Origin: Myxococcales bacterium
GTDB taxonomy: Bacteria; Myxococcota_A; Polyangia; Polyangiales; DASUME01
Direction: 5' to 3'
Assembly: GCA_047601445.1 (NCBI GenBank)
Contig: JASGJH010000001.1
Location: 5,472,001 to 5,536,000, forward strand
DNA length: 64,000 bases
A program made the translations under genes and the position numbers. Below the pieces are notes generated by a model. The model was not told the origin of the DNA. It saw only the letters and a program-made list of their open reading frames with translations, and made no database searches. This document shows, piece after piece, positions 7,790-22,700 of the stretch. Every line of letters begins with the position of its first letter. The stretch's first letter is position 1.

Positions 7790-9778
7790 TCAGGTGGGGT
7801 TGTCGTAGTAGCCGTTCGGCGCGCAGAAGGGCACCGAATAGTCCACGTCGCAGACCCAGCCCTCGTGCATGAACACGCAGTCACCCGACGCGCAGTCGTC
7901 GCCACCCTTGGCCGGGTCGCAGGTCTCACCGGTGTGCAGGTACTTCGTGCAGGTGCCTGTCTGAGGCGTGGGGCCGTCAGCGCAGTAGGAACCTTCAGCG
8001 CAGCGGAAACCGTTGGGGTTCGTCTGATCGCAGGTGGCGCCGTCGGCGAGCGGCGCCGCGCACGCGTAAGAGGTTGCGGTTTTCTGACACCAGTTGCTCT
8101 TGCACCAGGCGTGCACGCCGGCGCAGTAAGTGCCGTCGGGCAGGTCGACGAGCTGGCTCTGGGTCTCGTTGAGCTGGAAGCACTTGCCTGCGCTGGCCCC
8201 GTCGGACGGCCAACAGTAGAGGCCGATGTCGCAGTTCGAGAACCCGTTGGGCGTAGTGCACGGGTTGTTCAGCGCCACCGCGCCCGCCGTGCAAGTGCCA
8301 GCGCTGCACCACTGACCGGCCGGACACTCGTGGTTGCTCCCGGTCGGACAAAGCGCGCCCGCGGCTACCTTCGGAGCGCACTTCGAATTGCCGTCGCAGA
8401 AGCCCGACTGGCAGCTGTTGTCGCGCACGTAGTCGCTGCAGTCGTTACCGCTCGCGATCAACGGCTCGCAGTAGTAGCCGTCATCAGTGACCTCGCAGAA
8501 GCTCCCCTGCGGGCACTTGTCACAGTCGGGACCCACGCAACCGTATTCACAATACGCCGAGCACTTCTTGTCCGTGGCGCAGTGCCCACTCGAACAGTCG
8601 CTGCTGTCGTCGCAGGCCGCGCCCAGGTCGCCCGGCACGCACAGGCCCACGAACGTGTCGTTGCTCTCACTGAAGTCCTGTAGCTCAGGGCTCGCCTTGT
8701 TGCTGCACACCTCGCCCGCCGGGCACATCGAGTTCGAGTAGCAATACGCCCCCTGGGCGCAGTCGGACTTGGTGCACGTCTTGCTCACGGCGTTGCAGGT
8801 GAAGCCCACTTCGCAGTCGATGGACGTGCTGCTACCCCAGTCCCGCAGGTAGGTGGATCGGTCGATCGGCGGAGCGATGTTCTTGAAGGTGGGGTCCAAC
8901 AGGGCGCACGGCTCGCCCTCCTTGGCGCGCGTCTTACAGGTGCCCGCGGTGAAGTCGCAGTAGAGCTCGTCGCAGTCCGACTGCTGCGTGCAGCGGTCGC
9001 CCACCGCAGCCTTGGCTCCGCAGGTGCCCGACTGACCATTCTGATCGTAGGGATCCCCGCGGCAGATCAGGCCGTCCCCGCACTCGTCGAAGTAGAGGTT
9101 GGGCTCGCAGGTGTCGCCGTCGCGCTCCTGACCCTTGAGCAGCTTGGAGAGCGAACACGGATCGGCAGGCTGGGGCAGCGCGGTACAGCTCTCCGCTTGC
9201 TGTAGGTCGCGCGGACACACCTCGGCGCCGATGAACGTGGCACAGGCAGTCACTGCCGTGTCGTCGATCTTCACCAGAATATCGGTGTCGTTGAGCGCGT
9301 GCGCGGCGCGCACGATGGTCTCGAGATATTGCCCGACGCGGCCTCCTAGATCGGACACCTGGGCGTTGTTGATCAGATCCTTGAAGGTGGCCTTGCACTC
9401 GTCGGCGTTCTTCACGCTCGGCCCGTAGAGATAGGAGAGCTCTCCCGTGGTGCAGCAGTTGGCCTCTTTGTCGCACAGCGCGTCGATGACGGGCTGCAAG
9501 CCCGAGCTCACCAGCGAGATGCCATCCGGAATGCACAGCTCCCCCGTGCTGCACGAGCCCGGCACCTTGGGGGTCTCGAGCACGTCGGTGCGCATATCGA
9601 GGCCGTTCAGCTGCGTGTTCAGATTCCCGATCTGATCGCGCAGCTCCTTGACCTGATCACTGAAGTTTTGCGTGCCAGCGTCCGCGTCTCCTCCCTGGTC
9701 GTCGTCGTCAGAGCCGCCGCAGGCCGCAAGTCCCAACACCAGGCAGATCCCCGCTGCCCTCCACCCTTCACGAATCAT
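7790..9778 (-). CDS. Cysteine-rich lipoprotein (Dickkopf-like Cys repeats, short coiled coil)
   Basis: Lipobox LAAC, coiled coil QVKELRDQIGNLNTQL, many GxxC-x3/4-C-x4-C modules; start at MIREGW. Confidence 0.8.
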   Translation of the reverse strand: MIREGWRAAGICLVLGLAACGGSDDDDQGGDADAGTQNFSDQVKELRDQIGNLNTQLNGLDMRTDVLETPKVPGSCSTGELCIPDGISLVSSGLQPVIDALCDKEANCCTTGELSYLYGPSVKNADECKATFKDLINNAQVSDLGGRVGQYLETIVRAAHALNDTDILVKIDDTAVTACATFIGAEVCPRDLQQAESCTALPQPADPCSLSKLLKGQERDGDTCEPNLYFDECGDGLICRGDPYDQNGQSGTCGAKAAVGDRCTQQSDCDELYCDFTAGTCKTRAKEGEPCALLDPTFKNIAPPIDRSTYLRDWGSSTSIDCEVGFTCNAVSKTCTKSDCAQGAYCYSNSMCPAGEVCSNKASPELQDFSESNDTFVGLCVPGDLGAACDDSSDCSSGHCATDKKCSAYCEYGCVGPDCDKCPQGSFCEVTDDGYYCEPLIASGNDCSDYVRDNSCQSGFCDGNSKCAPKVAAGALCPTGSNHECPAGQWCSAGTCTAGAVALNNPCTTPNGFSNCDIGLYCWPSDGASAGKCFQLNETQSQLVDLPDGTYCAGVHAWCKSNWCQKTATSYACAAPLADGATCDQTNPNGFRCAEGSYCADGPTPQTGTCTKYLHTGETCDPAKGGDDCASGDCVFMHEGWVCDVDYSVPFCAPNGYYDNPT

Positions 9779-10053
9779 TCGTCGTGTCCCTCTCGAGAGG
9801 CCACACCCGCGCGCCGTCACGCCGCACGCTGACGGTGGACACCCCCCGGTGCGGTTAAGGCTAACGGGGACGCCGCTTCGAATTCACCTCTAAAAATGGG
9901 AACTTGGGACAAGGCTCTGCGGGCCCCACGGACTCGGCGACGTAGCTCACCAAAACCTGCGGCTGCGAGTTCGGGCGTCCTGCCGAGAGGTGGGCGATGT
10001 GAGGCCGCCTCGAGGAGCGAAGAGAGCGTCTGCCCGCGCGCTAGCATGGGCCC

Positions 10054-10719
10054 ATGGCCACGAGCTTCGAGGATCTAGGCGAATCAACCAGCATGGCGGC
10101 GCTGAAATCGCGCTTCGCGGAGTGCCCCTGGTGGGACAACTTTCGGGAGGCCGAGTCGCTCAATGACGAAGCGCCTCGGGTACGCCTGATCGAGGGCCCG
10201 CTCGAGCTCGACGGTGACTTGCACACCGGGTCCGACCCGTGGGCGGTCATCGTGGATGGCTCGCTGACCCTGAGCGGCACCCTCGAGTGCTACACGGAGG
10301 ATGCGCGCACCAGCACCTTGATCGTCACCGGACCCGTGCGTGCGGCGAATCTCTTCTTTGCCAGCGCGGCTCAGGTGTGGGTCGGGTCCCTCGAGCTCTC
10401 CGGCTTCGTGATCGGCACCTGGGGCGACAGCGGTGCGTGGCTGAGTTCAGCAGGACCGCTCATCGCGCGCGGAGTCCTGCTCGACTCTCACACGGCCGCA
10501 TACGGACACCCCACCCAGGCCATCGTGCTCGCCGGCCGCGGCTGGCAAAACCTGGTCCCCGACATCGCCGACGGCGAAAACGCGCTCTTCGTGCCCGAGG
10601 TGCGGGATCGCGGAGGCCCGTTCTTGAACTTTCACGCGGCACGCGACGCTGCGAAATCCGGCCGGCCCGTCTTCGATGTGGCGCAGGAAGCCTCGCTACG
10701 CGGGCGCAAGGGACTCTAG
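10054..10719 (+). CDS. Hypothetical protein with bactofilin-like beta-solenoid repeats
   Basis: Repeats IEGPLELDGDL / IVDGSLTLSGTL / IVTGPVRAANL; plausible codon usage. Confidence 0.6.
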   Translation: MATSFEDLGESTSMAALKSRFAECPWWDNFREAESLNDEAPRVRLIEGPLELDGDLHTGSDPWAVIVDGSLTLSGTLECYTEDARTSTLIVTGPVRAANLFFASAAQVWVGSLELSGFVIGTWGDSGAWLSSAGPLIARGVLLDSHTAAYGHPTQAIVLAGRGWQNLVPDIADGENALFVPEVRDRGGPFLNFHAARDAAKSGRPVFDVAQEASLRGRKGL

Positions 10720-11138
10720 TTGGGGGGTTGCGCTTCGCGCTGACGATCTGAATCGAGGTCGCACTCCCGCACGGACACTGGGATCCGAGCAGCGGAGCTT
10801 GCCCGCGCGTGTGCCAACTCACCGTGCGACCGTGTCGATCTGAGCGTTGTGCAGACAGCTCAAGCTCGTGTCAGGTTAAGTCAGACATCGCGTTAGGGAT
10901 GGGTGCCCGCCGAAGCGCGGCGAAGAGTCGCTGCGCCAGTGAGTTCGCTGGCGACCCGGAACGCGTAGAACCTCGTGGAGTCAAGCGTCCCGCCAGAGCG
11001 CAGGTCGCATCCGCCACCTCTATTCGACCCTTCTTCGATCGCACAGGCGAGCGCTCGCACGGTCTGGCCAGGCAGTGCGACGGTGCGTCGTTTTGTGCCG
11101 CGATCTTTCTTGATCAACCAGAAACAGTGGAGAGGCAC

Positions 11139-12191
11139 ATGATCAAAGCGAAACCGAGAAACCACCGAAAATCGACGAGCTGCCTAGTCAGCGGGGCGGC
11201 CGCCATGGCGATGCTCCTCAGCAGCGCCCAGCACGCATCCGCCCTGGAAGACAACATCTGCATCCAGACGAACTGGGCGAGCCACGGCAACAGTCAGAAC
11301 CTTACTTGCACGGCCAATGACGTGCGGGTTGCCGAGGCCTTCAACATCTGTGTGCCCGATGCCACACAGCCATCCGGCCAGTGCTGCCAGTCGGACGGCT
11401 GCCAGCCGACTTGCATCCAGGGCACGCAGTTCACCTTTACCGCGGACTTCAGGGTCGACCTGACCGCACAAACTCGCTACGACGTCGGCATCTACTTCGC
11501 GACCGACGGCGGTGGCAGCGACGGTGCGCTCACCGGGGCGTGCGAACTCAACACCATCGATCCCGCGAACGGACAGAACTTCACCAACCAGGATCGCCCG
11601 CCGGATGTCTGCGGCGACATCGTGAACACTTCCGCCTTCAATCCTCAGATCGTGCACCTCGAGGTTGGCGCTACGTGCCAGGGAACCGCGGCGAACCCCG
11701 AGCAGGTGAACCTGCCGAACTGCACGAGCTGGCGACAGTCGGGCGCTAACGAGGTCTGCGATGAGGCGCGCGATGCCTTCCCGGGCTCGCCCTCCAAGTG
11801 TAACTGCCAGCCGAACTTCGCGATCGACATCTTCGTCGAGCCGCCGGACGCGGCGGTGGTCAAGACCGCCAAGTCGGCCTGCGTCACCTTCGAAGTCAAA
11901 GTGAGTAACCCGACGCAGACCAAAACCTTGAGCCTGAACTCGCTCATCGACGCGCCGTACGGCGACATCACCAACGCTGCGAACCCGAACCTGTGCAGCA
12001 CGACCTGCGGCGGTCTTCCCCGCACGCTCGCGCCGGGCGCGGACTACACCTGCACCTTCGCGGCGCGCGTAGCGAGCTTGGCCACCGTGCAGACCGACAC
12101 GGTCACCGCGACGCTGACGAGCGATGGCCAGAACATCCAGCGCAGTGGTAGCGAACGGGTGCTGATCGATCTGGACCCGCCCAGCAATTAG
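11139..12191 (+). CDS. Secreted Cys-containing hypothetical protein with Ig-like C-terminal domain
   Basis: SD GGAGAG before ATG 11139; signal peptide ending ASA; C-terminal beta-rich domain (VVKTA...VTFEVKVSN...LAPGADYTCTF). Confidence 0.7.
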   Translation: MIKAKPRNHRKSTSCLVSGAAAMAMLLSSAQHASALEDNICIQTNWASHGNSQNLTCTANDVRVAEAFNICVPDATQPSGQCCQSDGCQPTCIQGTQFTFTADFRVDLTAQTRYDVGIYFATDGGGSDGALTGACELNTIDPANGQNFTNQDRPPDVCGDIVNTSAFNPQIVHLEVGATCQGTAANPEQVNLPNCTSWRQSGANEVCDEARDAFPGSPSKCNCQPNFAIDIFVEPPDAAVVKTAKSACVTFEVKVSNPTQTKTLSLNSLIDAPYGDITNAANPNLCSTTCGGLPRTLAPGADYTCTFAARVASLATVQTDTVTATLTSDGQNIQRSGSERVLIDLDPPSN

Positions 12192-12225: not shown

Positions 12226-13830
12226 TTACGGGGAGTTCTCTCGGGCCTGAATCCGTTCGTAGGAGAGCCCGAACCGTGCGAGGTACTTCCGCAAGCGGTC
12301 AGCATCGTTGCTGCTGTTCTTCTTCGCCCGCGAGGCCGCGAACAGTTTACGCCCGGCATCGCTCAGGGACTTCGACTCGCGACATACCCGCACCACCACG
12401 GCGAGCTGCGCTTGGTCGAACAGATCGATCTGCTCCAGGGCTTCCGCATCCAGGTACGCGCTCAGTGCAGGCTCGGGTGTGCTCGCCACCGGTCCCCAGC
12501 TGAATCGCAGGCGCTCGATCTCTCCGCGCACCGTGGCCACGTCGATGCGTCCGCCGGAGGCCAGCGTGGCCATACGGGTCACGGCGGCACGGAAGTCTCG
12601 AAAATTACCCAGCCAGCGCGCATCACGCGAGCGCGCGAACTCCAGGAACAGCGCGCGTGCTTCACGGTTCATGGTGACGCGCCGGTGCTGCTCGGTGTCC
12701 CAGTGCTCGAGCTCGTAGTCGAGGTTGGGCTCGATGTCCTCGAGCCGCTCCGAGAGCCCCGGCAGTTCGAACGTCCACAAGTTGATGCGCGCCAGCAAGT
12801 CCTCGCGAAATGCCCCGTCGCGCGAGGTGAGCTTGCGGTTGGTGCCAGCTAGCAGCTGAAATTCACTGGTCACCGTGCGGTCGCTGCCCACGGGCATGAA
12901 CTTCCGCTCCTCCAAGGCGCGCAGCAACATGGCCTGTTCGTCGCTGCCGAGCTCCCCGATCTCGTCCAGGAAGAGCACGCCGCCGTGGGCCGCACGCAAC
13001 AGGCCCGCGCGGTCGGTGGCGGCACCGGTATAGGCCCCCTTCACGTGACCGAACAGTGCGCTCATGGCGCCGTCGCCGCGGAGAGTGGCGCAGTTGACCT
13101 CCACGAAGGGACCCCTCACCTGCTGCCGATCACGCTTGAGCTCGTACACCCTGCGGGCGAGCTGCGACTTGCCAGCGCCCGTGGGCCCCATCAAGAGAAT
13201 GGGCTCGCGCGAGCGCGTGGCCACCAGCTCGAGCTGCTCGATCAGGCGATTGAAGGCGGCGTTCTTGGTGTCGATGCCCGCCTTGAGGAAGCTGATGCTG
13301 TCTTGTTTCTCGGCCTCGAAGCGACGCGCGATGCTGTCGTACCGACTCAGATCGAGATCGATGATGCCGTACTTGCCCGGCTCGGAACGCTGACGCGCGG
13401 GCGGGGGCGAGGCTTGCAGCAAGCGACCCGGAATGTGGCGCGACTCGGTGAGCAAGAACCAGCAGATCTGCGCCACGTGGGTGCCCGTGGTGATGTGCAC
13501 CAGGTACTCCTCGCGGTCGGGCGCGAAGGGGTAGCTGCGGGCCCAGCTCGAGAGCGCCGCGTAGACCTCCTCGAAGTCCCAGGGATCCTTGAGCGACAGG
13601 CCGTGGTGTCGGACCTCGGTGTGAGGGGACACGCTCACCATGTCCCGGGCCACCAGCTCCGCGAGCGCATGGTTCTCCGGATCGCAGAGCAGCTCGAAGC
13701 GCTCGATCAACAGGTCCTCGTGGCGGCACAGGTCCACGTTCGGCCGCCAGCGCTCCCAACGCTGCTCGCGCATGCCGCCGTCGAGCACGCTGCCCAGGAT
13801 GCCGATCACCACCGTCTTCAGCTTGGCCAC
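12226..13830 (-). CDS. rtcR: Sigma54-dependent RNA-repair transcriptional activator RtcR
   Basis: N-terminal RtcR/CARF region (RWERWRP, DPWDFEEVY, HITTGTHVAQIC), Walker A GPTGAGKS, GAYTGA, C-terminal NDADRLRKYLARFGL; divergent from rtcB. Confidence 0.97.
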   Translation of the reverse strand: MAKLKTVVIGILGSVLDGGMREQRWERWRPNVDLCRHEDLLIERFELLCDPENHALAELVARDMVSVSPHTEVRHHGLSLKDPWDFEEVYAALSSWARSYPFAPDREEYLVHITTGTHVAQICWFLLTESRHIPGRLLQASPPPARQRSEPGKYGIIDLDLSRYDSIARRFEAEKQDSISFLKAGIDTKNAAFNRLIEQLELVATRSREPILLMGPTGAGKSQLARRVYELKRDRQQVRGPFVEVNCATLRGDGAMSALFGHVKGAYTGAATDRAGLLRAAHGGVLFLDEIGELGSDEQAMLLRALEERKFMPVGSDRTVTSEFQLLAGTNRKLTSRDGAFREDLLARINLWTFELPGLSERLEDIEPNLDYELEHWDTEQHRRVTMNREARALFLEFARSRDARWLGNFRDFRAAVTRMATLASGGRIDVATVRGEIERLRFSWGPVASTPEPALSAYLDAEALEQIDLFDQAQLAVVVRVCRESKSLSDAGRKLFAASRAKKNSSNDADRLRKYLARFGLSYERIQARENSP

Positions 13831-13836
13831 CGATAT

Positions 13837-13852
13837 TTATCTTATACGATAA
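13837..13852. promoter_or_regulatory. Probable RtcR binding site (TTATC-N6-GATAA palindrome)
   Basis: AT-rich inverted repeat in a high-GC background, ~120 bp upstream of the sigma54 promoter and next to the rtcR start. Confidence 0.7.
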
Positions 13853-13969
13853 TTTTATCCGTGCCTCTCGAGATTGAGCCACCGTCAGTGCCCCGGCGCT
13901 TCCAGCATCTCGCGGAATAGCCACATCTATCCGAGTACTTAGAGCTCTGGTCGTCATCGCCCACCCGGA

Positions 13970-13985
13970 CGGCACGCGGGCTGCT
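13970..13985 (+). promoter_or_regulatory. Sigma54 (-24/-12) promoter of the rtcB operon
   Basis: cGGCACGCGGGCTGCt = GG-N10-GC with the GGCAC -24 core, ~36 nt before the rtcB ATG. Confidence 0.8.
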
Positions 13986-14020
13986 CTAGCAAGGGTCAGA
14001 ATCAACTTCTGGAGTTCCCG

Positions 14021-15256
14021 ATGACCCGCGAGCACAACTACGACTTCCTCCCCACGCCCTCAGGCCTGCCCATCAAGAGCTGGACGCGCGGGGTGCCGGT
14101 GGAAGCTCCGGCGCTCAAGCAGCTGCAGAACATGGCGAGCTTGCCCTTCATCTACAAGTGGCTGGCCGTGATGCCCGACGTGCACCTCGGGAAGGGCGCC
14201 ACCGTGGGCAGCGTGGTGCCTACCCACAAGGCGATCATCCCGGCGGCCGTGGGCGTGGATATCGGCTGCGGCATGATGGCCGTGCAAACATCGCTCAACG
14301 CCCGCGATCTGCCGGACTCGTTGCGCGACGTGCGCTCCGCCATCGAGCGCGCGGTGCCCCATGGCCGCGAGGTGACGCGTGGTGGACGCGACAAGGGCTC
14401 CTGGGGAAACCCGCCCGAGGCGCAGATCCAGGCCTGGAAGGGCTCGCTCGTGGAGCGCTTCGACGTCATCACCGCCAAGCACCCGGCGATCAAGAACTCG
14501 AACCACGTGGTGCACCTCGGCACGCTGGGTACCGGAAACCACTTCATTGAGCTGTGTCTCGACGAGTCCGATCAGGTGTGGGTGATGTTGCACTCGGGAT
14601 CGCGCGGCGTGGGAAACCGGATTGGGAGCTACTTCATCGAGCTCGCCAAGAAGGAGATGGGTCGCTTCTTCGTGAACTTGCCGGACCGGGATCTGGCGTA
14701 TCTGCCCGAGGGAAGCCAGCACTTCGAGGACTATGTGGAGGCCGTACAATGGGCGCAGGACTTCGCGATGCAGAACCGCCGCTTGATGATGAGTCAGGTG
14801 CTCGGCGCGCTGCGCGGACTCGGGAGCTTGCCCGAGTTCACCACAGATCGCCTAGCGGTGAACTGCCACCACAACTACGTGGCGCGTGAGACGCACTATG
14901 GAGAAGAGGTGTTGGTGACCCGCAAGGGCGCGGTGCGTGCGGGCGTGGGGGATCTCGGGATCATCCCGGGCAGCATGGGAGCGCGTTCGTTCATCGTGCG
15001 CGGCAAGGGAAATCCTGAGAGCTTCTGCAGCTGCAGCCACGGGGCGGGGCGCGTGATGTCGCGCACCGAGGCCAAGAAGCGCTTCACCACGGAGGACCAC
15101 GTGCGGGCCACCGAGGGCATCGAGTGCCGCAAGGACGCGGACGTGATCGACGAGACGCCGATGGCCTACAAGGACATCGACGCGGTGATGGAAGCGCAAA
15201 AGGATCTGGTGGAGGTCGCGCACACGCTGCGTCAAGTGGTGTGCGTGAAGGGTTGA
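14021..15256 (+). CDS. rtcB: RNA 2',3'-cyclic/3'-phosphate-5'-OH ligase RtcB
   Basis: MPDVHLGKGATVG, VGVDIGCGM, GTLGTGNHFIE, HSGSRG, CHHNY, PGSMG, SCSHGAGR, DETPMAYK, VCVKG. Confidence 0.98.
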   Translation: MTREHNYDFLPTPSGLPIKSWTRGVPVEAPALKQLQNMASLPFIYKWLAVMPDVHLGKGATVGSVVPTHKAIIPAAVGVDIGCGMMAVQTSLNARDLPDSLRDVRSAIERAVPHGREVTRGGRDKGSWGNPPEAQIQAWKGSLVERFDVITAKHPAIKNSNHVVHLGTLGTGNHFIELCLDESDQVWVMLHSGSRGVGNRIGSYFIELAKKEMGRFFVNLPDRDLAYLPEGSQHFEDYVEAVQWAQDFAMQNRRLMMSQVLGALRGLGSLPEFTTDRLAVNCHHNYVARETHYGEEVLVTRKGAVRAGVGDLGIIPGSMGARSFIVRGKGNPESFCSCSHGAGRVMSRTEAKKRFTTEDHVRATEGIECRKDADVIDETPMAYKDIDAVMEAQKDLVEVAHTLRQVVCVKG

Positions 15257-15257
15257 A

Positions 15258-16325
15258 ATGGACGAGCTGATTCACATCGATGGTTCGATCGGCGGCGGGC
15301 AGGTGTTGCGTAGCGCGCTCTCGTTGAGTGCGCTCACGGGCAAGCCCTTCGTCATCGAGTCGATCCGGATGCTGCGCGAGCGGCCCGGGTTGATGCGACA
15401 GCACCTGACGGCCGTGCAAGCGGTGGCCCGCATCTGCGGCGCGGAACTGCGTGGCGCAGAGCTCGGCTCGACGCGGCTCGAGTTCCGTCCGGGCCCTGTG
15501 CAGGCCGGGGACTACGAGTTCCCCATCGGCTCGGCGGGCAGCGCTTGCCTGGTGTTGCAGACCGTGTTGCCGCCGCTCGCCGTGGCGGGCGGTGCGTCGC
15601 AGCTGGTGTTCGAGGGCGGTACGCACAACCCGCTGGCGCCGCCCTACCCCTTTCTGGACCAAGTGTTCTTGCCGATCTGGGAGAAGCTGGGGCTGGGCGT
15701 GGAGCGTGAGCTCGTGCGCGCGGGCTTCTACCCGGCGGGCGGCGGGCGTTTCCGCGTGCGGCTCGAGCCGGTGGAGCGCGTGTCGCGGCTGGATCTGCTC
15801 GAGCGTGGGAGCATGCGGCGCATCTGGGCCGAGGCCTCGGTGTCGAATCTGCCGATTCACATCGCACGGCGCGAGCTTGAGGTCGTCAAGAAGCGCTTCC
15901 AGCTGGACGATGCGGATCTTCTGCTGCGCACGCCCGAGGCTTACGGGCCGGGCAACGTGCTCACCATTTGCGCGGAGTTCGAGCACGCCACGGAGATGGT
16001 GGTTGAGTTCGGGGCGCCCAAGCTGGCCGCGGAGCGATTGGCCGAGCGCGCAGTGCGGGCCCTCGGGCGCTACCTGGCGAGCGGCGCCGCGGTGGGCGAG
16101 CACCTCTCGGATCAGCTGTTGGTTCCGCTGGCGATGGCCGGTTCGGGCAGCTTCTCCACGCTCGAGCTCACGGAGCACGCGCGCTCGAACATCTCGGTGA
16201 TCGAGCGCTTCATGCCGGTGAAGTTCCAGGTGGAGAGCGAGTCGCAAGCACGGACGCTGGTGAAAGTGCACCCGATGTTCGAAGCCAGGGATGAACAAAC
16301 TGGGACCGACGTGATCGCGAGCTGA
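15258..16325 (+). CDS. rtcA: RNA 3'-terminal phosphate cyclase RtcA
   Basis: GGGQVLRSALSLS, RPGLMRQH, GGTHNPLAP, GFYPAGGG, HLSDQL, TEHARSN. Confidence 0.96.
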   Translation: MDELIHIDGSIGGGQVLRSALSLSALTGKPFVIESIRMLRERPGLMRQHLTAVQAVARICGAELRGAELGSTRLEFRPGPVQAGDYEFPIGSAGSACLVLQTVLPPLAVAGGASQLVFEGGTHNPLAPPYPFLDQVFLPIWEKLGLGVERELVRAGFYPAGGGRFRVRLEPVERVSRLDLLERGSMRRIWAEASVSNLPIHIARRELEVVKKRFQLDDADLLLRTPEAYGPGNVLTICAEFEHATEMVVEFGAPKLAAERLAERAVRALGRYLASGAAVGEHLSDQLLVPLAMAGSGSFSTLELTEHARSNISVIERFMPVKFQVESESQARTLVKVHPMFEARDEQTGTDVIAS

Positions 16326-16397
16326 GTCCGAACTCCGCGCGACGAGAATGACCTTCCACGTGCTCCTGCGCGGGCGCGGCGGGCGCGGTGCGTCCCG

Positions 16398-16410
16398 TGC
16401 TCTTTGACAA
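16398..16410 (+). promoter_or_regulatory. boxA (Nus-factor antitermination) motif
   Basis: TGCTCTTTGACAA, close to the rrn boxA consensus TGCTCTTTAACA, preceded by a GC-rich hairpin and directly ahead of RNA genes. Confidence 0.65.
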
Positions 16411-16433
16411 GCGAAGTCTTGCCTCCGTTCTTT

Positions 16434-16510
16434 GGTGGACGTGGTGTAGTGGTCTGCACGCTTGGTTGTGGCCCAGGCAGTGGTGGGTTCGATTCCCCCC
16501 GTTCACCCCA
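16434..16510 (+). tRNA. tRNA-His (GTG), with encoded G-1 and CCA
   Basis: G-1:C73; acceptor GTGGACG/CGTTCAC; D stem GTGT/GCAC; anticodon arm CTTGG-TTGTGGC-CCAGG (GTG at 16468-16470); T arm GTGGG-TTCGATT-CCCCC (one mismatch); 3' CCA. Confidence 0.9.
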
Positions 16511-16534
16511 TGCAGCGTACGAGAGTACGCTGCA
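16511..16534 (+). other. Perfect 10-bp GNRA hairpin immediately after the tRNA CCA
   Basis: tgcagcgtac-gaga-gtacgctgca; no U-tract, so more likely a processing/stability element than a terminator. Confidence 0.6.
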
Positions 16535-16601
16535 GTTCGCGCGCCTCGCCCGTCGAGGGAAACGCGGCCCGTGTGCATGCGGCGAGTCATCCCTCGCGGC
16601 A

Positions 16602-16829
16602 TCTGCAGGCGGGTTTCGCAGGGACGCGCGATGCGCGCATTTCGGTGCGCTTACCTATGGGTCGAGGGTTCGATTCCCTCCCGCGGCGCAAGCTCGGTAG
16701 CTCAGTGGTAGAGCAATAGGCAACCATGGGCCTGCGTTCACGCGCAGGCGGCCAACCTCGGCCAAGACGTGCGCTGGCCGCTTCTCATCTCTCATGGTGA
16801 AGCGGGCGCGTCCTCCCGGGAAACGCAGA
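16602..16829 (+). ncRNA. Y-RNA (YrlA)-like ncRNA with circularly permuted tRNA-like core (16654-16720); outer boundaries inferred
   Basis: CCTAT-GGGTC-GAGGG TTCGATT CCCTC-CCGCGGC GCAA GCTCGG-TA-GCTC AGTGGTA GAGC-A-ATAGG: T arm, tetraloop-capped acceptor, D arm in that order; enclosed by GGGACGCGC/GCGCGTCCT, GTTTC/GAAAC, TCTGC/GCAGA. Confidence 0.75.
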
Positions 16830-17067
16830 GCGCAGCAGCGCGCGAGCCAGCCAGCCATGGACCGCTCGCGCAGCCCCGCGCTCCGCCATTCCCTGCGGAC
16901 GACGCGTTAGCTCAAGGCAAACGACGACCTCACGAGCCCTCGCTGACGCTTGCTGCGTCTAGAGCGCTGGAGGTCCTCCGCCGCCGAGCGGCTCGCGTGC
17001 GTCGCGGCCATCTATGTTCGCGCTCTCTGGGAGAGAGCGCTCGAAACGCTGAAAAAGGAGCGTCGTC

Positions 17068-18171
17068 ATGTACTGGTACAAGGTTCTGCGTGTGAAGTTG
17101 AACGAACGCGTCGTGCTGCTCGACGACGGGCTGCCACTGCGTGCCCTCGGGCCGGGTCGGCACCGCGTGTGGGGAAGCCGCTTGACGGAGGTGCGCTGGA
17201 ACCTGGACCAACTCGTGTTCGACGCGCTCCCCGAAGTGCGCGCGATGTTGCCCGCGGAGTGGTTCGAGGAGGTCGCCCTCCGAACGCGTGAGCGTGGCGT
17301 ACTCTTCAAGGACGGGCGTCCGCAGGTCTATTTGCGGCCTGGTGTGCACCGCTTCTGGAAGACCGAGGCCGGGATCACCCTGCGCGTCTTCTCCACGGAC
17401 GAACCCATGCCCGAGCTGAGCGAGGAGCTCTTGAAGCTCATTCCGGCCCACGAGTACACGCGCAAGACCATCGAGTCCTACGAGCGCGGTCTCCTGCTGG
17501 TGAAGGGTGTGCTGCGCTCGGTGCTCGAGCCCGGGCAGTATGCCCTGTGGTCCACGCCCGAGGACCCGGCGCGCATCCTGAGCGTGGACATGCGCACGCA
17601 GCAGGCCAGCCTGGCGGCCCAGGAGCTGATGACCCGCGACAAGGTCACGCTGCGACTGACGCTGACGGCCGAGTACGCCGTCGAGGATCCGGCGCTGGCC
17701 CACCAGGCGGTGAGCGATCTGCGAGACCACGTCTACCTGCAGACGCAGCTCGCGGCGCGCGACTACGTGGCCAGCGTGACCCTCGACGAGCTGCTGGAGG
17801 GGCGTGAAGAAATGACCCGCTATCTCGAAAGCGAGGTGGTGCCGCGCGCCGCGAAGGCGGGCGCACGCGTGCGGCGCATCGGCGTGAAGGACGTGGTGCT
17901 GCCCGGCGAGATGAAGGGGTTGCTCAACCGCGTCATCGAAGCCGAGAAGGCGGCCATGGCCAACGTGATCCTGCGGCGTGAGGAGGCTGCGGCCACGCGG
18001 CTGTTGGCCAGCAGCGCGCGCATGATGGCGGACCAACCGGTGCTTCTGCGGCTGAAGGAGCTCGAGACCTTGAAGGAGATGGCGAGCCAAATCGACGAGG
18101 TGCGGCTCGTGGTGGGGTCCGATGGCCTCGAGAAGCTCTTGCCGGCCCAGCTGATCGGCGCCGGGCGCTGA
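17068..18171 (+). CDS. SPFH/Band 7 (slipin-family) protein
   Basis: Three N-terminal (E)RGLL...L.PG repeats, QELMTRDKVTLR, GVKDVVLPGEMK, VIEAEKAAMANVILRREEAAATR, LRLKELE; SD AAGGAG. Confidence 0.92.
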   Translation: MYWYKVLRVKLNERVVLLDDGLPLRALGPGRHRVWGSRLTEVRWNLDQLVFDALPEVRAMLPAEWFEEVALRTRERGVLFKDGRPQVYLRPGVHRFWKTEAGITLRVFSTDEPMPELSEELLKLIPAHEYTRKTIESYERGLLLVKGVLRSVLEPGQYALWSTPEDPARILSVDMRTQQASLAAQELMTRDKVTLRLTLTAEYAVEDPALAHQAVSDLRDHVYLQTQLAARDYVASVTLDELLEGREEMTRYLESEVVPRAAKAGARVRRIGVKDVVLPGEMKGLLNRVIEAEKAAMANVILRREEAAATRLLASSARMMADQPVLLRLKELETLKEMASQIDEVRLVVGSDGLEKLLPAQLIGAGR

Positions 18172-18201
18172 ACGGGGCTTCGTGCCGCGCGAACTCCTCG
18201 C

Positions 18202-19068
18202 TCACTCCGGGCGCTGCGCGAGGCCCCACTTCGCGATGGCGGCGAGCGCCGACTCGCGGCTACCGAACACGGCGATGAAGCGGTTCTTGTGGCAGAACCT
18301 GGCGTCAGGCACGCCGACTACCTTGGAGAGCTCCTCGTCGACCAGGCCGGCCCAGGCCTCCGGCAGCGGACGCTTCTTATCGAAGCTGTCGTGCTCCGGC
18401 GGGATGGCCACGAGCTGCCAGCGATCGCCCTCGGGGAAGAGCGCGTAGTCCGTGGGGTGTTGCGCGCCGCCGAACTCGAAGTACGCGCGCTTCCACTTCA
18501 GGTGGCGATCGAACGTCATGATGCGGGTGTGGTCGCGCAGCGCCTGATCCATGGCCTCTTTCACCGCGGCGCGCGCGAGCTCGGTGCGCAGCTGAGCCTG
18601 GCGCAGGCCGCGCAAGATGCCCTCGCACAACTGAACCGCTTCGGCGTAGCGCTCGTCGAACTCGCCACTACTCTCGGCCTGCTCGCACAGCGCGCCGACC
18701 ACACTGGGCAGACACGGCACCCCTTCGTCGGGCTTGCGGCGGCCGTTGTCCACCGCGTCGATGTAGTCCACCCACTGCTCCCGCAGCTTGCGCGCGAGCG
18801 CGAGATCGACCCGACCCTCGCTCTCGAGCCAGCTCAGCACCATGCCAGCCGACGAGAGCGGGCCCGTGTATTCGCGCTGGTGGTGATCGAAGCGACCGCG
18901 CGCCGCGTCGTACTCCCCGCCCACGTCGATCGCGATGTCGGCCTCGGCAATGCGCGCGAGATCGCGGGTGCGCACGAAGCGCAACGCGGGGTCGAGGAAG
19001 CAACGCAGCAGCGCTCCCGCGAAGACGTCGTCACAGTGAAAGGGGCCTGAGTGCGTAGCGACCAGCAT
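18202..19068 (-). CDS. MYG1-family (DHH-like) 3'-5' exonuclease
   Basis: THSGPFHCDD, RTRD, DVGGEYD, FDHHQ, LSSAG, IDAVDNG, FCHKNRFIA. Confidence 0.92.
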   Translation of the reverse strand: MLVATHSGPFHCDDVFAGALLRCFLDPALRFVRTRDLARIAEADIAIDVGGEYDAARGRFDHHQREYTGPLSSAGMVLSWLESEGRVDLALARKLREQWVDYIDAVDNGRRKPDEGVPCLPSVVGALCEQAESSGEFDERYAEAVQLCEGILRGLRQAQLRTELARAAVKEAMDQALRDHTRIMTFDRHLKWKRAYFEFGGAQHPTDYALFPEGDRWQLVAIPPEHDSFDKKRPLPEAWAGLVDEELSKVVGVPDARFCHKNRFIAVFGSRESALAAIAKWGLAQRPE

Positions 19069-19176
19069 CGCCCTGCTGTAGAGCAATCCTCGCCCCTGAC
19101 AAGTCTTTTGTACGGCACCCACCCTACCGCGAGGTTCGCTGCGCTCACGCTGTGCGCCCGGTGCCCGGGTCGGGCG

Positions 19177-19781: not shown

Positions 19782-22700
19782 CTACGACGAGCGCGCCCCG
19801 TCGAGCAGGCGGCGCACCGTGGCGCGCAAGGTGTCGGCGTTGAGGGGCTTCGCGACGCACTCCACCGAGGGGCCCATGTCGCGTCCGAGCGTGACGGGAT
19901 CCGAGTATCCGGAAATGAGCAGCACGGGCAGCGCGAGGTTCACGCGCCTGAGCTCGTCGACCAGCTCGTAGCCGCTCATGCCCGGCATGACCACGTCGCT
20001 GATCACGAGGTTCGGCGCTTCGCCCGCGCGCTGAACCAGACGCAACGCCTCGAGCGGATCCCGCGTGGTGAGCACGCGATAGCCGTCCCGTGCCAGCACC
20101 TCGCGCACCACGGTTCGCACGCTATCGTTGTCCTCCACCACCAAGAGAGACTCACCACGCCCGAACTGGCTCTGCGTCTCGGACCGCGGCGCCGAAGTCT
20201 GTTCGCCCTGTGCGCCCGCGCGCGGCTCTCCTGGCACGCTGTCCACGCGCGGCAACAGGATGTCGAAGCGGGTGCCCTTGCCGACCTCGCTGCTTAGCTC
20301 CACGCGACCGCCGTGCTGCGCCACGATGCCGTGCACGGTGGGCAGGCCGAGCCCCGTCCCCTTGCCCACCTCCTTGGTAGTGAAGAACGGCGCGAACGCG
20401 CGCCCCATGGCCTCCTTGTCCATGCCGATGCCGGTGTCACTGACCCGCAAGAGCACGCAGGGCCCGCTCTGCCCCTCGCCCTGCGCGCCCTTGGCATCCG
20501 ACACCTCCGGCAGCAGCACGTTGCGGGTCTCGAAGGTCATGCGCCCACCGCGAGGCATGGCGTCGGCCGCGTTCATGGCCAGGTTCATCAGCACGCGCTG
20601 CATCTGGGCGGGGTCCGCACGCACCTGGCCAAGGTCCGACGCCAAGTGCAGCTCGATCGCGATGTTCTCACGCAGCACGCGCCGCAACATGCGCTCGAAC
20701 TTGCCGAGCTCGGCGTTCAGATCGAGGATGTGGGGCTTCAACACCTGCTGACGTCCGAAGGCCAGGAGCTGCTTGGTGAGCTCGGCCGCCTGCTCGGCCG
20801 CGTCCTTCACCTGCGTCACGTGTCGGCGTACGGTGGAGTCCTCCGGCAGCGCCTGTTGAGCCAGCTCTGCGTAGATCAACATCGGCGTGAGGAGGTTGTT
20901 GAAGTCGTGGGCGACACCGCCGGCCAGACGGCCGATGAACTCGAGCCGCTCCGCCTGATGCAGCTGGTGCTCGAGGCGCGTGCGCTCGGCTTCGGCGGCG
21001 CGTTGCGGTCCGATGTCCTGGAAGGCGGCCATGGCGTAGCGAATGGCGCCATCCTCACCGAGCACGGGCGTGCCCCAGACGGCCAGTGGCACCACCTTGC
21101 CATCGATGCGGATCTCGATGTCGTCGACCATCGAACGCTCCCCGCGCAGCGCCCGCGCCAGCGGCGTGCGTTCAGTCGGATAGGGTTGGTCGGTGCCGGC
21201 CACGTAAATACTGTAAGCGCCGAGCGTGTCACCCGGCCAGCCGGCGTCCTCGTTGACCACGCGCAAGAGCTCGCCCGCGCGCCGGTTGGAGAAGGCATGG
21301 CGGCCCTTGGCGTCCACCACGTAGACGCCCACGGGCATGCCTTCGAAGAACTCTCGCAGCAGGGATTCGCTCGAGCGCAGGGCCGAGTTGAGCTTCTGAG
21401 TCGCTTCGAAAAGCTGGGCGTTCTCCAGGGAGATGGCCGCCTGCGCCAAAAGAACCCGCAAGAGCTCCAGGCGCTCCTCCGTGAACACTCCGTCCGCGAG
21501 CGAGTTCTCCAGGAACAGCAGGCCCGGCACGTGGTCACGGTGCCGTACGGCCATGCACAAGATCGACTTCGAGTGATGGAACACCACGTAGGGATCGGCG
21601 GTGAAGGGGCCGACCTGGCCTGCGTTCTCCAGGGCGACGTCCTTTCCGGTGCGCAGCGTGTAGCGGACGATGGCCTGCGACACGAGGGTGTCGTCTTCGA
21701 GGGGCGCGTCTTCGCTGGCGAGGCGCAGCTGGCTGCTCTGAAGGTCCAGGTGAGCCCGCACGCGGAACTCCCCCTGGCGAGACACGAGCAGGGCACCCCG
21801 CTGGGCCCCGGAGGCCTGCACGATCACGTGCAGCATGCGATCGAGCAAGACCGGCATGGAGATCTCGCTGGCCAGCGCCTGCGAGGCGCGTAGAGCGCTC
21901 TCCATGTCGAGCGACCAAGTCGGGCGTATCGCGGGCCCAGGTGACGCAGTGTACTCGAGTTGGACCTCGTCGAGCGCCCTCACCTTTCCGAAGGCCCCCC
22001 AGCGCTGGTAGGCCTCGCGGGCAGCCCGCGAGAAACCGCGGGCTACGTCGGTGTTGCCACGGCGTGCGTGGGCGCGCGCGGTGAGCTCGAGCGCGAGAGC
22101 TGCGTGGTGGGGGTAACCGTTCTCCGTGGCCAGGCGGATCGCTCGCTCGTAGAACTCGGCCGCCCGTACGCGACGGCCCTCGGCCTCGGCGAGCTCGGCC
22201 TGGACGAGTGCGTAGCGGTGTTGGAAGTTCACCGGCGCGCTCTCGGCCCATTGCTTCAACAGCGCGAGCTTCGGCTCGAGCAATGCCTCGATCTGCGCGC
22301 CCTCGAAGGCGGGATCGGAGCGCGCCTCCACCAGTGAGAGACAGACCAGGAAGGTGTACTCACTGAGCCGGAGGTTCGCGGCGTTGGCCTCCTCGATCAG
22401 CGAACCCGCCTCCAGAAGGACGCGCACCACCTCGCGATGGGCGCCGAACCAGGCGTAGGCCGTGAGCTTGCAGAGGAAGAGCTGGCCGCGTGCCGGCACC
22501 GAGTCGCGCTCGCGGATGTGCTGCCGTAGTTGCTCCTCGCTCAGGTCGTCCGTGCTCAGGCTCAGGCGCTCCAAGGTCTGACCGCGCAAGCAGCGCACGA
22601 GCTGCCGTAGCGTGCGCAGCAGGAGCAAGCGCTCGTCTCCTCGCAGCGCGCGGATCTCGCGCTCTTGGTGCTCCGCCTCGGCGCATACCTCCTGCAAGGG

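What the first reader, a model, noticed from the sequence alone, without database searches (positions are those of the whole stretch)
12226..19068. Composite RNA damage-response module: RtcR / RtcB-RtcA-boxA-tRNAHis-tRNA mimic-SPFH, closed by MYG1
Seen: one sigma54 promoter ahead of rtcB, a 1-nt gap between rtcB and rtcA, no U-tailed terminator in the ~740-nt spacer, then an SPFH gene on the same strand. Known: RtcR is activated by cleaved tRNA fragments, RtcA/RtcB convert and seal RNA ends, and SPFH/slipin genes and tRNAs occur in some rtc operons. Inference: one transcript supplies repair enzymes, a replacement tRNA, a tRNA decoy and an oligomeric SPFH scaffold occupying the position where Rsr is often found, so the SPFH protein is a candidate partner for the ncRNA. 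I cannot tell from sequence alone whether this exact combination has been described.
Basis: partly seen in the sequence, partly recalled or inferred. Interest (0 to 1): 0.8.

Follow-up and report, generated by a model that had tools for sequence, protein, structure and literature searches.

The report
RNA-repair operon with tRNA mimic and slipin
This is an RtcR-controlled RNA-repair operon (rtcB, rtcA) followed by a spare tRNA-His, a tRNA-shaped decoy RNA and a soluble SPFH (slipin) protein; it is a trimmed member of a system already predicted in the literature, and the neighbouring MYG1 gene is only a flank.

Summary
These are rtcR, a sigma54 -24/-12 box, rtcB and rtcA 1 nt apart, a boxA-like 13-mer, tRNA-His, a permuted tRNA mimic, an SPFH gene and a convergent MYG1.

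The mimic is a YrlA-type tRNA-like domain without the Ro-binding stem. The genome has no Rsr.

The mimic lies upstream of the SPFH orthologue in 61 of 75 testable Polyangia loci, so the RNA-SPFH pairing is real. In 14 of 80 loci the pair sits inside same-strand arrays of 10-29 tRNA genes. 8 of 80 loci carry rtc genes, and several have a sigma54-like box ahead of the first tRNA.

A same-genus genome has rtcB-rtcA, tRNAs, a full YrlA, rsr, tRNA-His and the mimic on one contig, and an SPFH fragment on another. The window therefore looks like a reduced form, and SPFH adds to Rsr rather than replacing it.

MYG1 is next to SPFH in 0 of 80 loci.

RtcB with a Band-7 protein and a tRNA-like RNA was already predicted by Burroughs and Aravind (2016), which I know only through a citing preprint.

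Co-transcription and RNA binding remain untested.

Verdict: a new member of a known kind, of moderate interest.

The parts
12226..13830 (-). rtcR: CARF-like RtcR domain plus sigma54 AAA+ activator, divergent from rtcB
   Evidence: Pfam PF06956 2.3e-81 and PF00158 1.2e-44. NCBIfam NF038308 793 bits, over the cut-off of 650.
13970..13985 (+). sigma54-type -24/-12 promoter element CGGCACGcgggCTGCT, about 37 nt before the rtcB ATG
   Evidence: Sequence read. Weighted consensus scan gives score 21 of 23. Only 2 sites with score >=21 occur in the whole window on both strands. rpoN is present in the genome.
14021..15256 (+). rtcB RNA ligase
   Evidence: PF01139 2.4e-131, full-length match.
15258..16325 (+). 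rtcA RNA 3'-phosphate cyclase, 1 nt after rtcB
   Evidence: PF01137 2.4e-74. NF003246 403 bits, over the cut-off of 352. Coordinates.
16398..16410 (+). boxA-like 13-mer TGCTCTTTGACAA, 24 nt upstream of tRNA-His; function inferred only
   Evidence: Unique in the genome. The same or a near-identical motif with extended conservation lies 64-144 nt before tRNA genes in L002, L004, L008, L022, L043 and L079 (TTTGACAA 10 on the + strand, 2 on the - strand). It occurs twice in G001. It does not match the own rrn leader or ITS beyond CTTTGA.
16434..16510 (+). extra tRNA-His(GTG) with encoded G-1, C73 and CCA
   Evidence: ARAGORN. Rfam tRNA 47 bits. It is 88% identical to the tRNA-His in the same position in G001 and 68% identical to the genome's housekeeping tRNA-His. 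A housekeeping copy exists in a His-Arg-Lys cluster.
16511..16534 (+). perfect 10-bp hairpin with a GAGA loop right after the tRNA and no U-tail; specific to the window
   Evidence: It appears as an insertion relative to G001 in alignments A5 and A6.
16634..16743 (+). SPFH-type YrlA-like permuted tRNA mimic (core 16656-16718). Order: T-arm, acceptor hairpin, D-arm, closed by an anticodon-stem-like helix. No anticodon loop and no Ro-binding stem.
   Evidence: Rfam RF02553 partial hit, 37.5 bits, E 1.6e-6, model 23-85 of 114. RNAalifold on 10 sequences: 14 of 19 pairs have compensatory changes. My own model R1 scores 79.6 bits, but the window was in the seed.
17068..18171 (+). soluble SPFH/slipin protein of 367 aa with an AAGGAG Shine-Dalgarno. 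It has three five-strand beta units, an SPFH core and a long C-terminal helix.
   Evidence: PF01145. AlphaFold model with pLDDT 86. Stomatin Z 17, 27-29% identity. N-terminal units resemble the SPFH1 beta part of QmcA and HflK, Z 5.4-5.7. No hydrophobic N-terminus.
18202..19122 (-). MYG1 (UPF0160) gene, convergent to SPFH: a flank, not part of the module
   Evidence: PF03690 9.3e-57. Next to SPFH in 0 of 80 related loci. Its distribution is uncoupled from SPFH within the genus.

Best explanation
This is a sigma54/RtcR-dependent RNA-damage response locus. RtcR is divergent from rtcB. In Salmonella RtcR is activated by tRNA fragments (Hughes 2020, passages seen). Here it would fire the -24/-12 promoter at 13970 and drive rtcB-rtcA. 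Transcription would then most likely read on through a boxA-like element into a spare tRNA-His, a tRNA-shaped non-coding RNA and a soluble slipin (SPFH) gene.

The RNA is a YrlA-type permuted tRNA domain. It lacks the Ro-binding stem and carries its own conserved flanks. It is the conserved cis-neighbour of this SPFH family and is probably its bound RNA. By homology to stomatin and HflK, the SPFH protein would form a ring or cage. It would be cytosolic, because the membrane anchor is replaced by two extra SPFH1-like beta units. The RNA-protein particle would act as a cofactor or decoy in tRNA repair, in the way Rsr and YrlA are thought to act.

The window is a cut-down form of a Polyangia cassette. 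In relatives that cassette carries 10-29 backup tRNA genes, an HNH endonuclease, and sometimes rsr with a full YrlA.

Shown: the identities of the genes and RNAs, the covariation, and the co-occurrence. Inferred: co-transcription, RNA binding, cage formation and the repair or decoy role.
For: Components.

RNA structure: 14 of 19 pairs are compensatory.

RNA-SPFH linkage: the mimic lies within 900 nt upstream of SPFH in 61 of 75 loci that have enough flank. Eight of these 61 were seed sequences, so 53 of 67 are independent. The only other hit in the own genome is a tRNA-junction artefact.

Links to Rtc, sigma54 and tRNAs:
- At least 10 same-strand tRNAs in 14 of 80 loci, and at least 4 in 21 of 80.
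- rtc genes in 8 of 80 loci.
- TGGCACG-N4-CTCGCA lies 366-413 nt before the first tRNA in L008, L028, L076 and L079, and 496 nt before the mimic in L032. rtcR lies just upstream of that box in L028 and L076.
- The congener G001 has rtcB-rtcA, tRNAs, a full YrlA (72.6 bits), rsr, tRNA-His and the partial mimic on one contig, with an SPFH fragment on a second contig.
- L020 (Labilithrix luteola) has a like arrangement.

Other phyla:
- Citrobacter has rtcR divergent from a sigma54 box, a T-arm RNA, a slipin and a nucleotidyltransferase.
- PA4582 is a gene of the P. aeruginosa rtcB operon. The Atlas cluster with the structure closest to this protein bears that name, TM 0.88.
- In Anabaena a slipin, rtcB, an HNH gene and the tRNA operon are all de-repressed in a trcR mutant.

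Window spacer: no sigma70-like promoter was found in it.
Against: There are no expression data, so one transcript is not shown.

Only 9 of 56 loci have a sigma54-like box within 900 nt upstream of the RNA cassette, against 4 of 56 on the opposite strand. 72 of 80 loci show no rtc gene within about 6 kb. The RNA-SPFH pair therefore mostly lives without visible Rtc control.

Several relatives have T-runs after hairpins 60-90 nt before SPFH (L006, L007, L016, L023), which hints at termination before SPFH in those loci. The window has a strong hairpin after tRNA-His. High-GC bacteria can terminate without U-tails (my own knowledge).

The motif I call boxA-like contains TTGACA. In G001 it is followed by CATAAT at a 15-nt spacing, so it could be a -35 box.

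The SPFH orthologue was not found in 8 of 9 same-genus genomes, and one has only a fragment. It is therefore dispensable.

The conserved 3' domain and the 5'-UTR hairpin seen in relatives are weak or absent in the window.
Confidence: 0.6

Rival explanations
1. There are two adjacent but separately transcribed units. rtcBA would end after rtcA or after tRNA-His. The tRNA-His, mimic and SPFH unit would have its own promoter that is independent of RtcR, so the adjacency would reflect shared ancestry of a mobile cassette rather than one regulon.
For: Most related RNA-SPFH cassettes have neither rtc genes (72 of 80) nor a sigma54-like box (47 of 56). Terminator-like T-runs precede SPFH in some relatives. 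A 10-bp hairpin follows tRNA-His. A TTGACA hexamer lies after rtcA, and in G001 it has a CATAAT partner.
Against: In the window no -10 partner follows TTGACA, and a start from it would fall inside the tRNA. No sigma70-like site was found in the spacer. In L079, L028, L076, L008 and L032 a sigma54-like box directly leads the tRNA, mimic and SPFH unit. In the congener the whole string lies on one strand behind rtcBA.
Confidence: 0.27
2. The mimic is not a functional RNA. It would be a decayed junction of two neighbouring tRNA genes (the 3' half of one and the 5' half of the next), left over from a shrinking tRNA array.
For: Model R1 also hits real tRNA-tRNA junctions inside arrays and in the genome's housekeeping tRNA cluster, at 20-50 bits. 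The window looks like a reduced array.
Against: 14 of 19 pairs show compensatory changes, including the closing helix and the short acceptor hairpin that no tRNA junction has. The element keeps a fixed distance of 250-470 nt from SPFH in loci with no tRNA genes at all. It has conserved flanking linker sequence. It scores 50-99 bits, above the junction artefacts.
Confidence: 0.04
3. The SPFH protein is an ordinary membrane stomatin or HflK-like scaffold that is unrelated to RNA, and its neighbourhood is fortuitous.
For: The best structural matches are membrane SPFH proteins (stomatin Z 17; HflK, QmcA and prohibitin Z 14-15). NCBIfam gives only a weak HflK match.
Against: There is no hydrophobic N-terminal segment; residues 1-126 are two beta units. 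There is no NfeD-type neighbour: the adjacent features are RNAs and MYG1. The RNA neighbour is conserved in 61 of 75 loci. Relatives of the same architecture sit in rtc operons of gamma-proteobacteria.
Confidence: 0.06

Closest known systems
Band-7/SPFH with 'b7a-tRNA' RNA-repair modules next to RtcB (Burroughs and Aravind, NAR 2016). I know this only from the Discussion of bioRxiv 10.1101/312249; the paper itself is not held.
   Same: An RtcB operon with a Band-7 protein and a predicted tRNA-like RNA. The source also states that YrlA is occasionally adjacent to the Band-7 protein. RtcR-sigma54 context, as in Citrobacter and P. aeruginosa PA4582.
   Different: Here the RNA next to SPFH is the permuted YrlA type, not an ordinary cloverleaf, and a bona fide tRNA-His precedes it. 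In Polyangia the pair is embedded in long tRNA arrays. No nucleotidyltransferase gene follows the slipin.
Salmonella rsr-yrlBA-rtcBA operon (Rsr/Ro60 with YrlA; Chen 2014 seen as a search listing and abstract; Hughes 2020 seen as passages)
   Same: RtcR/sigma54 control. rtcBA together with a tRNA-mimicking RNA whose domain order is T-arm, acceptor hairpin, D-arm.
   Different: No Rsr in this genome. The mimic lacks the Ro-binding stem (model positions 1-22 and 86-114 are unmatched; 37.5 bits against a gathering score of 69). In G001 and L020 a full YrlA accompanies rsr, while the stem-less type accompanies SPFH.
[quoted passage not shown]
   Same: Relatives carry arrays of 10-29 tRNAs with an HNH gene inside (17 loci) and rtc genes nearby. 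In Anabaena a slipin gene is de-repressed together with the array, rtcB and HNH.
   Different: The window keeps one tRNA only. Control here is by an RtcR/sigma54 activator rather than the TrcR repressor. SPFH and Band-7 are not mentioned in PMC8421152 (0 occurrences). Orthology of the Anabaena slipin to this protein was not tested.
Major vault protein / vault particle
   Same: The order of beta repeats, then an SPFH-like shoulder, then a long helix. MVP residues 458-711 align to model residues 131-342 at Z 10.5-11.7. Vaults also pair a cage protein with a small RNA.
   Different: The N-terminal units match SPFH1 of QmcA and HflK (Z 5.4-5.7) better than an MVP repeat (Z 3.2). The protein is far smaller. 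No cage was shown.

Membership tests
Rtc RNA-repair operon (RtcR / sigma54 / RtcBA) | RtcR with a CARF-like N-domain and a sigma54 AAA+ domain, divergent from rtcB-rtcA | tested here: met
Rtc RNA-repair operon (RtcR / sigma54 / RtcBA) | A -24/-12 sigma54 promoter ahead of rtcB, and rpoN in the genome | tested here: met
   CGGCACGcgggCTGCT at 13970. PF04552 hit at 215 bits. The consensus used is recalled from memory.
Rtc RNA-repair operon (RtcR / sigma54 / RtcBA) | Induction by damaged tRNA | not testable with these tools
   No RNA run was listed.
YrlA (Rfam RF02553) | tRNA-like domain: T-arm, acceptor hairpin and D-arm, closed by a helix | tested here: met
   Model positions 23-85 aligned, E 1.6e-6. 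Covariation.
YrlA (Rfam RF02553) | Full-length match including the Ro-binding stem, reaching the gathering score | tested here: not met
   37.5 bits against 69, with positions 1-22 and 86-114 unmatched. 0 of 13 related loci have a YrlA hit at gathering score. The full YrlA in G001 scores 72.6 bits.
YrlA (Rfam RF02553) | An rsr (TROVE) gene as partner | tested here: not met
   No PF05731 match in the 98.7%-complete genome. tblastn with the G001 Rsr found nothing.
Band-7 / tRNA-like RNA repair module (Burroughs and Aravind 2016) | A Band-7 protein encoded beside RtcB with a tRNA-like RNA gene next to it | tested here: met
   The definition is taken second-hand.
SPFH / stomatin (PF01145) | SPFH domain followed by C-terminal helices | tested here: met
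   PF01145 83 bits. Stomatin Z 17.
SPFH / stomatin (PF01145) | N-terminal membrane anchor and/or an NfeD partner gene | tested here: not met
   The sequence and the model show beta units from residue 4. The neighbours are RNAs and MYG1. No transmembrane predictor was run.
Long tRNA array (L-array) | Many (about 20 or more) same-strand tRNA genes at high density | tested here: not met
   One tRNA in the 64-kb window, and no array in the genome. The feature is met in relatives.
boxA (Nus-factor antitermination site) | Match to the rrn boxA of the same organism, and NusB/NusE binding | tested here: inconclusive
   12 of 13 positions match the E. coli consensus, which I recall from memory. The motif is conserved in arrays. 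The own rrn leader and ITS share only CTTTGA. Binding cannot be tested with these tools.
Circularly permuted tRNA gene | Both halves can rebuild a complete tRNA with an anticodon loop | tested here: not met
   The closing helix has no anticodon loop in the window.
Major vault protein | MVP-type repeat domains before the shoulder | tested here: inconclusive
   MVP R-domain Z 3.2 against SPFH1 units Z 5.4-5.7.

The most novel reading that the evidence does not exclude
Polyangia carry an emergency translation-repair cassette under RtcR/sigma54 control. It would combine a full spare set of tRNAs, made Rho-proof by a boxA-like element, with a cytosolic vault-like SPFH cage. That cage would be loaded with a dedicated stem-less YrlA-type tRNA mimic and would work alongside, not instead of, Rsr-YrlA. 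The window's genome would be a natural minimal version: one tRNA, one mimic, one cage protein and no Rsr. This SPFH-type mimic would be a distinct RNA class that deserves its own family.
Probability: 0.25. Interest if true: 0.75.

Novelty: new member of a known kind. Interest (0 to 1): 0.5.

Why it matters
The role of the Band-7/slipin protein and its tRNA-like RNA in Rtc systems has only been predicted. I found no experimental test of it.

This locus is a compact natural case in a complete 9.5-Mb genome. It has a slipin and a mimic without Rsr, and it keeps RtcR, RtcB and RtcA. That would let the SPFH-RNA arm be studied on its own.

The comparative data add three points I did not find in print:
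- Two classes of YrlA-type RNA can sit in one operon, each beside its own protein.
- In Polyangia the pair is embedded in long tRNA arrays that are led in several cases by sigma54-like boxes and rtcR.
- A boxA-like motif recurs in these arrays.

If these points hold, tRNA arrays would be part of an inducible answer to tRNA-cleaving toxins.

Tried and rejected
- RNA-seq evidence: the look-up of sequencing runs listed no RNA holder.
- SPFH self-association: complex prediction with 2 copies gave no verdict, score 0.00.
- Reading Burroughs and Aravind (2016): the paper is not held, by DOI or by PMC id.
- Earlier scan notes: none found.
- boxA in the own rrn operons: no close match within 1200 nt upstream of 16S or in the ITS.
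- TTGACA as a -35 box for the tRNA: rejected for the window, because no -10 follows and the start would fall inside the tRNA. It remains open for G001.
- MVP-like repeats: weak, Z 3.2.
- A closing stem formed by the flanks of the mimic: no convincing conserved long-range helix for the window.
- BLASTN of the spacer against the loci found only the tRNA and the mimic core.
- Protein-neighbour clustering found no protein other than SPFH conserved in all loci.
- Rfam on the Citrobacter intergenic region gave only a T-arm hairpin.
- MYG1 as a module member: rejected.

Full report
**What is in the window**

- rtcR lies at 12226-13830 on the minus strand, divergent from rtcB (14021-15256). rtcA (15258-16325) follows rtcB after a 1-nt gap. 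An SPFH/Band_7 gene lies at 17068-18171 on the same strand, and a convergent MYG1 gene at 18202-19122.
- A sigma54-type element, CGGCACGcgggCTGCT, sits at 13970-13985. It has the correct GG-N10-GC spacing and lies about 37 nt before the rtcB start. It is one of only two sites of that quality on both strands of the window. The genome encodes sigma54.
- The 742-nt spacer between rtcA and SPFH holds a boxA-like 13-mer at 16398-16410, TGCTCTTTGACAA. It also holds a tRNA-His(GTG) at 16435-16510 with encoded G-1, C73 and CCA.
- A partial match to Rfam YrlA lies at 16656-16718: 37.5 bits, E 1.6e-6, model positions 23-85 of 114.
- The promoter and terminator scan found no sigma70-like site in the spacer. 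It found only weak terminator-like sites that were not enriched over shuffles.
- A perfect 10-bp hairpin without a U-tail follows the tRNA.

**The tRNA mimic is a real structured RNA**

I aligned the window element with nine similar elements from related loci. The consensus fold has a T-arm, a short acceptor hairpin and a D-arm, closed by an anticodon-stem-like helix. 14 of 19 pairs show compensatory changes. This is the permuted topology of the YrlA tRNA-like domain.

The part of YrlA that binds Ro is not matched. The genome has no TROVE/Rsr gene, by Pfam search (98.7% complete, one contig) and by tblastn with a congener's Rsr. The element is therefore YrlA-like in how it folds, but it fails two defining features of the Rfam family.

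**The RNA and the SPFH protein form a conserved pair**

A search with the SPFH protein returned 80 loci. All are Polyangia/Myxococcota, mostly metagenome bins, plus Labilithrix luteola.

A covariance model of the mimic found it within 900 nt upstream of the SPFH start, not overlapping a called tRNA, in 61 of the 75 loci that have that much upstream sequence. Eight of those were seed sequences, so 53 of 67 are independent. The usual distance is 250-470 nt, and in the window it is 325 nt. Hits in the Kofleriaceae-type loci are weak, at 20-31 bits.

Other model hits are junctions of adjacent tRNA genes, which mimic the permuted order. The one extra hit in the window's own genome is of this kind. 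No other protein is conserved across the loci.

**Links to tRNA arrays and to Rtc**

- In 14 of 80 loci the pair lies inside same-strand arrays of 10-29 tRNA genes by ARAGORN. 21 of 80 loci have at least four.
- 17 loci carry an HNH endonuclease inside the array. That is the hallmark reported for cyanobacterial long arrays (PMC8421152, passages).
- rtc genes lie within about 6 kb in 8 of 80 loci.
- A sigma54-like box, TGGCACG-N4-CTCGCA, lies 366-413 nt before the first tRNA in L008, L028, L076 and L079, and 496 nt before the mimic in L032. In L028 and L076 rtcR ends just before that box. L079 reads: box, tRNA-Phe, mimic, SPFH, then rtcR on the other strand, then a second box, rtcB and rtcA.
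- Against this, only 9 of 56 evaluable loci have such a box upstream of the cassette, compared with 4 of 56 on the opposite strand. Most loci show no rtc gene.

**The same-genus comparison is the most telling**

Contig C485 of G001 carries the following, in order:
- the end of rtcB and rtcA (66% identical to the window's);
- a copy of the TTTGACAAGCG motif;
- about eight tRNAs;
- a full-length YrlA (72.6 bits, above the gathering score);
- an rsr gene (TROVE plus the Ro60 vWA domain);
- a tRNA-His 88% identical to the window's (89.6% over the BLASTN-aligned 77 nt);
- the partial, stem-less mimic.

The contig ends there. An SPFH fragment lies on another small contig.

Labilithrix luteola has rtcB-rtcA, rsr, tRNAs and two near-full YrlA copies (65-67 bits). 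These are followed by a partial mimic (37.4 bits) directly before SPFH.

Two conclusions follow. First, there are two classes of YrlA-type RNA: the full form beside Rsr and the stem-less form beside SPFH. Second, SPFH does not stand in for Rsr, because they co-occur. None of 13 further loci has a YrlA hit at gathering score. The window looks like a deletion derivative that kept the last tRNA, the SPFH-type mimic and SPFH. The direction of change is my inference.

**The boxA-like motif**

The 13-mer is unique in the genome. The same or a near-identical motif, with about 30 nt of extended conservation, lies 64-144 nt before tRNA genes in L002, L004, L008, L022, L043 and L079, and twice in G001. 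TTTGACAA occurs 10 times on the cassette strand and 2 times on the other strand across the 80 loci.

Its likeness to the E. coli rrn boxA is recalled from memory. The genome's own rrn leader and spacer share only CTTTGA with it. A role in keeping RNA polymerase going across long untranslated arrays is plausible but unproven. In G001 the embedded TTGACA could instead be a -35 box.

**The SPFH protein**

The model (pLDDT 86) shows three five-strand beta units (residues 4-45, 66-109 and 130-174), the SPFH core and a long helix at 279-341. The core is closest to stomatin (Z about 17, 27-29% identity). HflK, QmcA and prohibitin follow at Z 14-15, and the MVP shoulder plus cap helix at Z 10.5-11.7.

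Residues 1-128 were folded alone (pLDDT 90.9). The first unit best matches the N-terminal beta part of QmcA and HflK (Z 5.4-5.7) and an MVP repeat only at Z 3.2. These are weak scores for a 46-residue unit. There is no hydrophobic N-terminus. I read it as a soluble slipin in which two extra SPFH1-like units replace the membrane anchor. Oligomerisation is inferred from homology only.

**Relatives in other phyla**

- The ESM Atlas finds clusters with the same full-length fold in several phyla. One is auto-named after PA4582 (TM 0.88). A paper states that PA4582 lies in the P. aeruginosa rtcB operon next to rtcR (PMC8619066, passage).
- In a Citrobacter record rtcR is divergent from a sigma54 box, a T-arm hairpin RNA, a slipin gene and a nucleotidyltransferase gene.
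- In Anabaena a slipin gene, rtcB, an HNH gene and the tRNA operon are all de-repressed in a trcR mutant (PMC10272220, passages). I did not test orthology of that slipin.

**MYG1 is a flank**

MYG1 is absent from all 80 related loci. It is present in 6 of 9 same-genus genomes, most of which lack the SPFH orthologue. It was not found in G001, which has the cassette. In G007 MYG1 is convergent to rtcB across about 925 nt, with no rtcA, tRNA, mimic or SPFH in between. The rtc locus has therefore sat beside MYG1 within this genus, but MYG1 does not travel with the module.

**Prior knowledge and novelty**

The Discussion of bioRxiv 10.1101/312249 cites Burroughs and Aravind (2016). It states that in some bacteria RtcB is encoded beside a Band-7 protein and a predicted tRNA-like 'b7a-tRNA', and that YrlA is occasionally adjacent to the Band-7 protein. 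I could not read the 2016 paper or its supplements, which may already list these myxobacterial loci.

Searches for tRNA arrays together with RtcB, myxobacteria or SPFH, and for slipin with RtcR or RtcB, found no description of the Polyangia arrays or of experiments on the slipin.

The window is a new, reduced member of a predicted system. The array-embedded form, the stem-less mimic class and the boxA-like motif may be new details.

**Mechanism and confidence**

Most likely (0.6): RtcR senses damaged tRNA and fires the sigma54 promoter. One transcript then yields RtcB, RtcA, a spare tRNA-His, the mimic and SPFH. The mimic loads onto a soluble SPFH assembly that aids or shields tRNA repair.

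The main rival (0.27) is that the tRNA, mimic and SPFH unit is transcribed on its own.

No expression data could be obtained.

Noticed in passing
L002, L003, L005, L007, L009, L011, L015, L016, L020, L022-L026, L029, L031, L042: the 20-70 nt before the SPFH start: A conserved 5'-UTR element just before the Shine-Dalgarno. It consists of a variable hairpin, then CCGC, then a small hairpin GCCG(G/A)CGGnn(C/T)CGGC with covarying stem positions. It is absent from the window, which has only a GCGCTCTCT/AGAGAGCGC hairpin there.
   Followed up: no
L010, L013, L015-L019, L025, L031, L034, L036-L039: 107-148 nt upstream of the mimic: Loci without called tRNAs still carry one or two tandem T-arm-like hairpins (GGTTCGAnTCC), some ending in CCA, that ARAGORN does not call. 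These may be the 'b7a-tRNA' of the literature.
   Followed up: partly
L001-L005, L008, L078, L079: between the last tRNA and the mimic, and 40-200 nt after the mimic: The linker (GACGCCGCGC ... GCGTCCGGTG..TCGGTTCCAC) and a downstream domain (CGGCCGA.AGGG ... GGCCATCG.CGCGGCGA) are conserved in sequence. The non-coding unit is therefore longer than the tRNA-like core. Both are weak in the window.
   Followed up: partly
17 loci, e.g. L002:2129-2728, L013:4810-5340: An HNH endonuclease gene (PF14279/PF01844) sits inside the tRNA arrays, usually between a tRNA-Leu and a tRNA-Pro.
   Followed up: partly
L023:6284-8015: A second strong mimic copy (76.9 bits) is followed by a tRNA-Arg and a distant RtcB paralogue (29% identity), about 4 kb downstream of SPFH.
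   Followed up: no
L041, L044, L046-L049, L051-L060, L063-L065, L068, L069, L071-L073: The Kofleriaceae/Haliangiales-type SPFH orthologues are about 480-497 aa long and carry an insertion of about 120 residues after the N-terminus.
   Followed up: no
L006, L007, L016, L023: 60-90 nt before the SPFH start: Hairpins followed by T-runs (for example GGTACCGTTTTTTTT) look like intrinsic terminators between the mimic and SPFH in some relatives. There is none in the window.
   Followed up: no
L001:5550-5605, L003:3460-3524: In some relatives the 3' strand of the mimic's closing helix can also pair with a downstream repeat to give an anticodon-like hairpin. Rfam tRNA scores this at 30-33 bits, which suggests alternative folds or an origin from tandem tRNAs.
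   Followed up: no
genome C1:2555890-2555983 and C1:8058530-8059654: A 94-nt 'tRNA-His' call by ARAGORN looks spurious. A second RtcB paralogue lies elsewhere in the genome (203 bits).
   Followed up: no
window 19782-25871 (-), 10054-12191 (+), 7790-9820 (-): There is a 2029-aa ORF just beyond MYG1. Three ORFs upstream of rtcR have no Pfam match.
   Followed up: no
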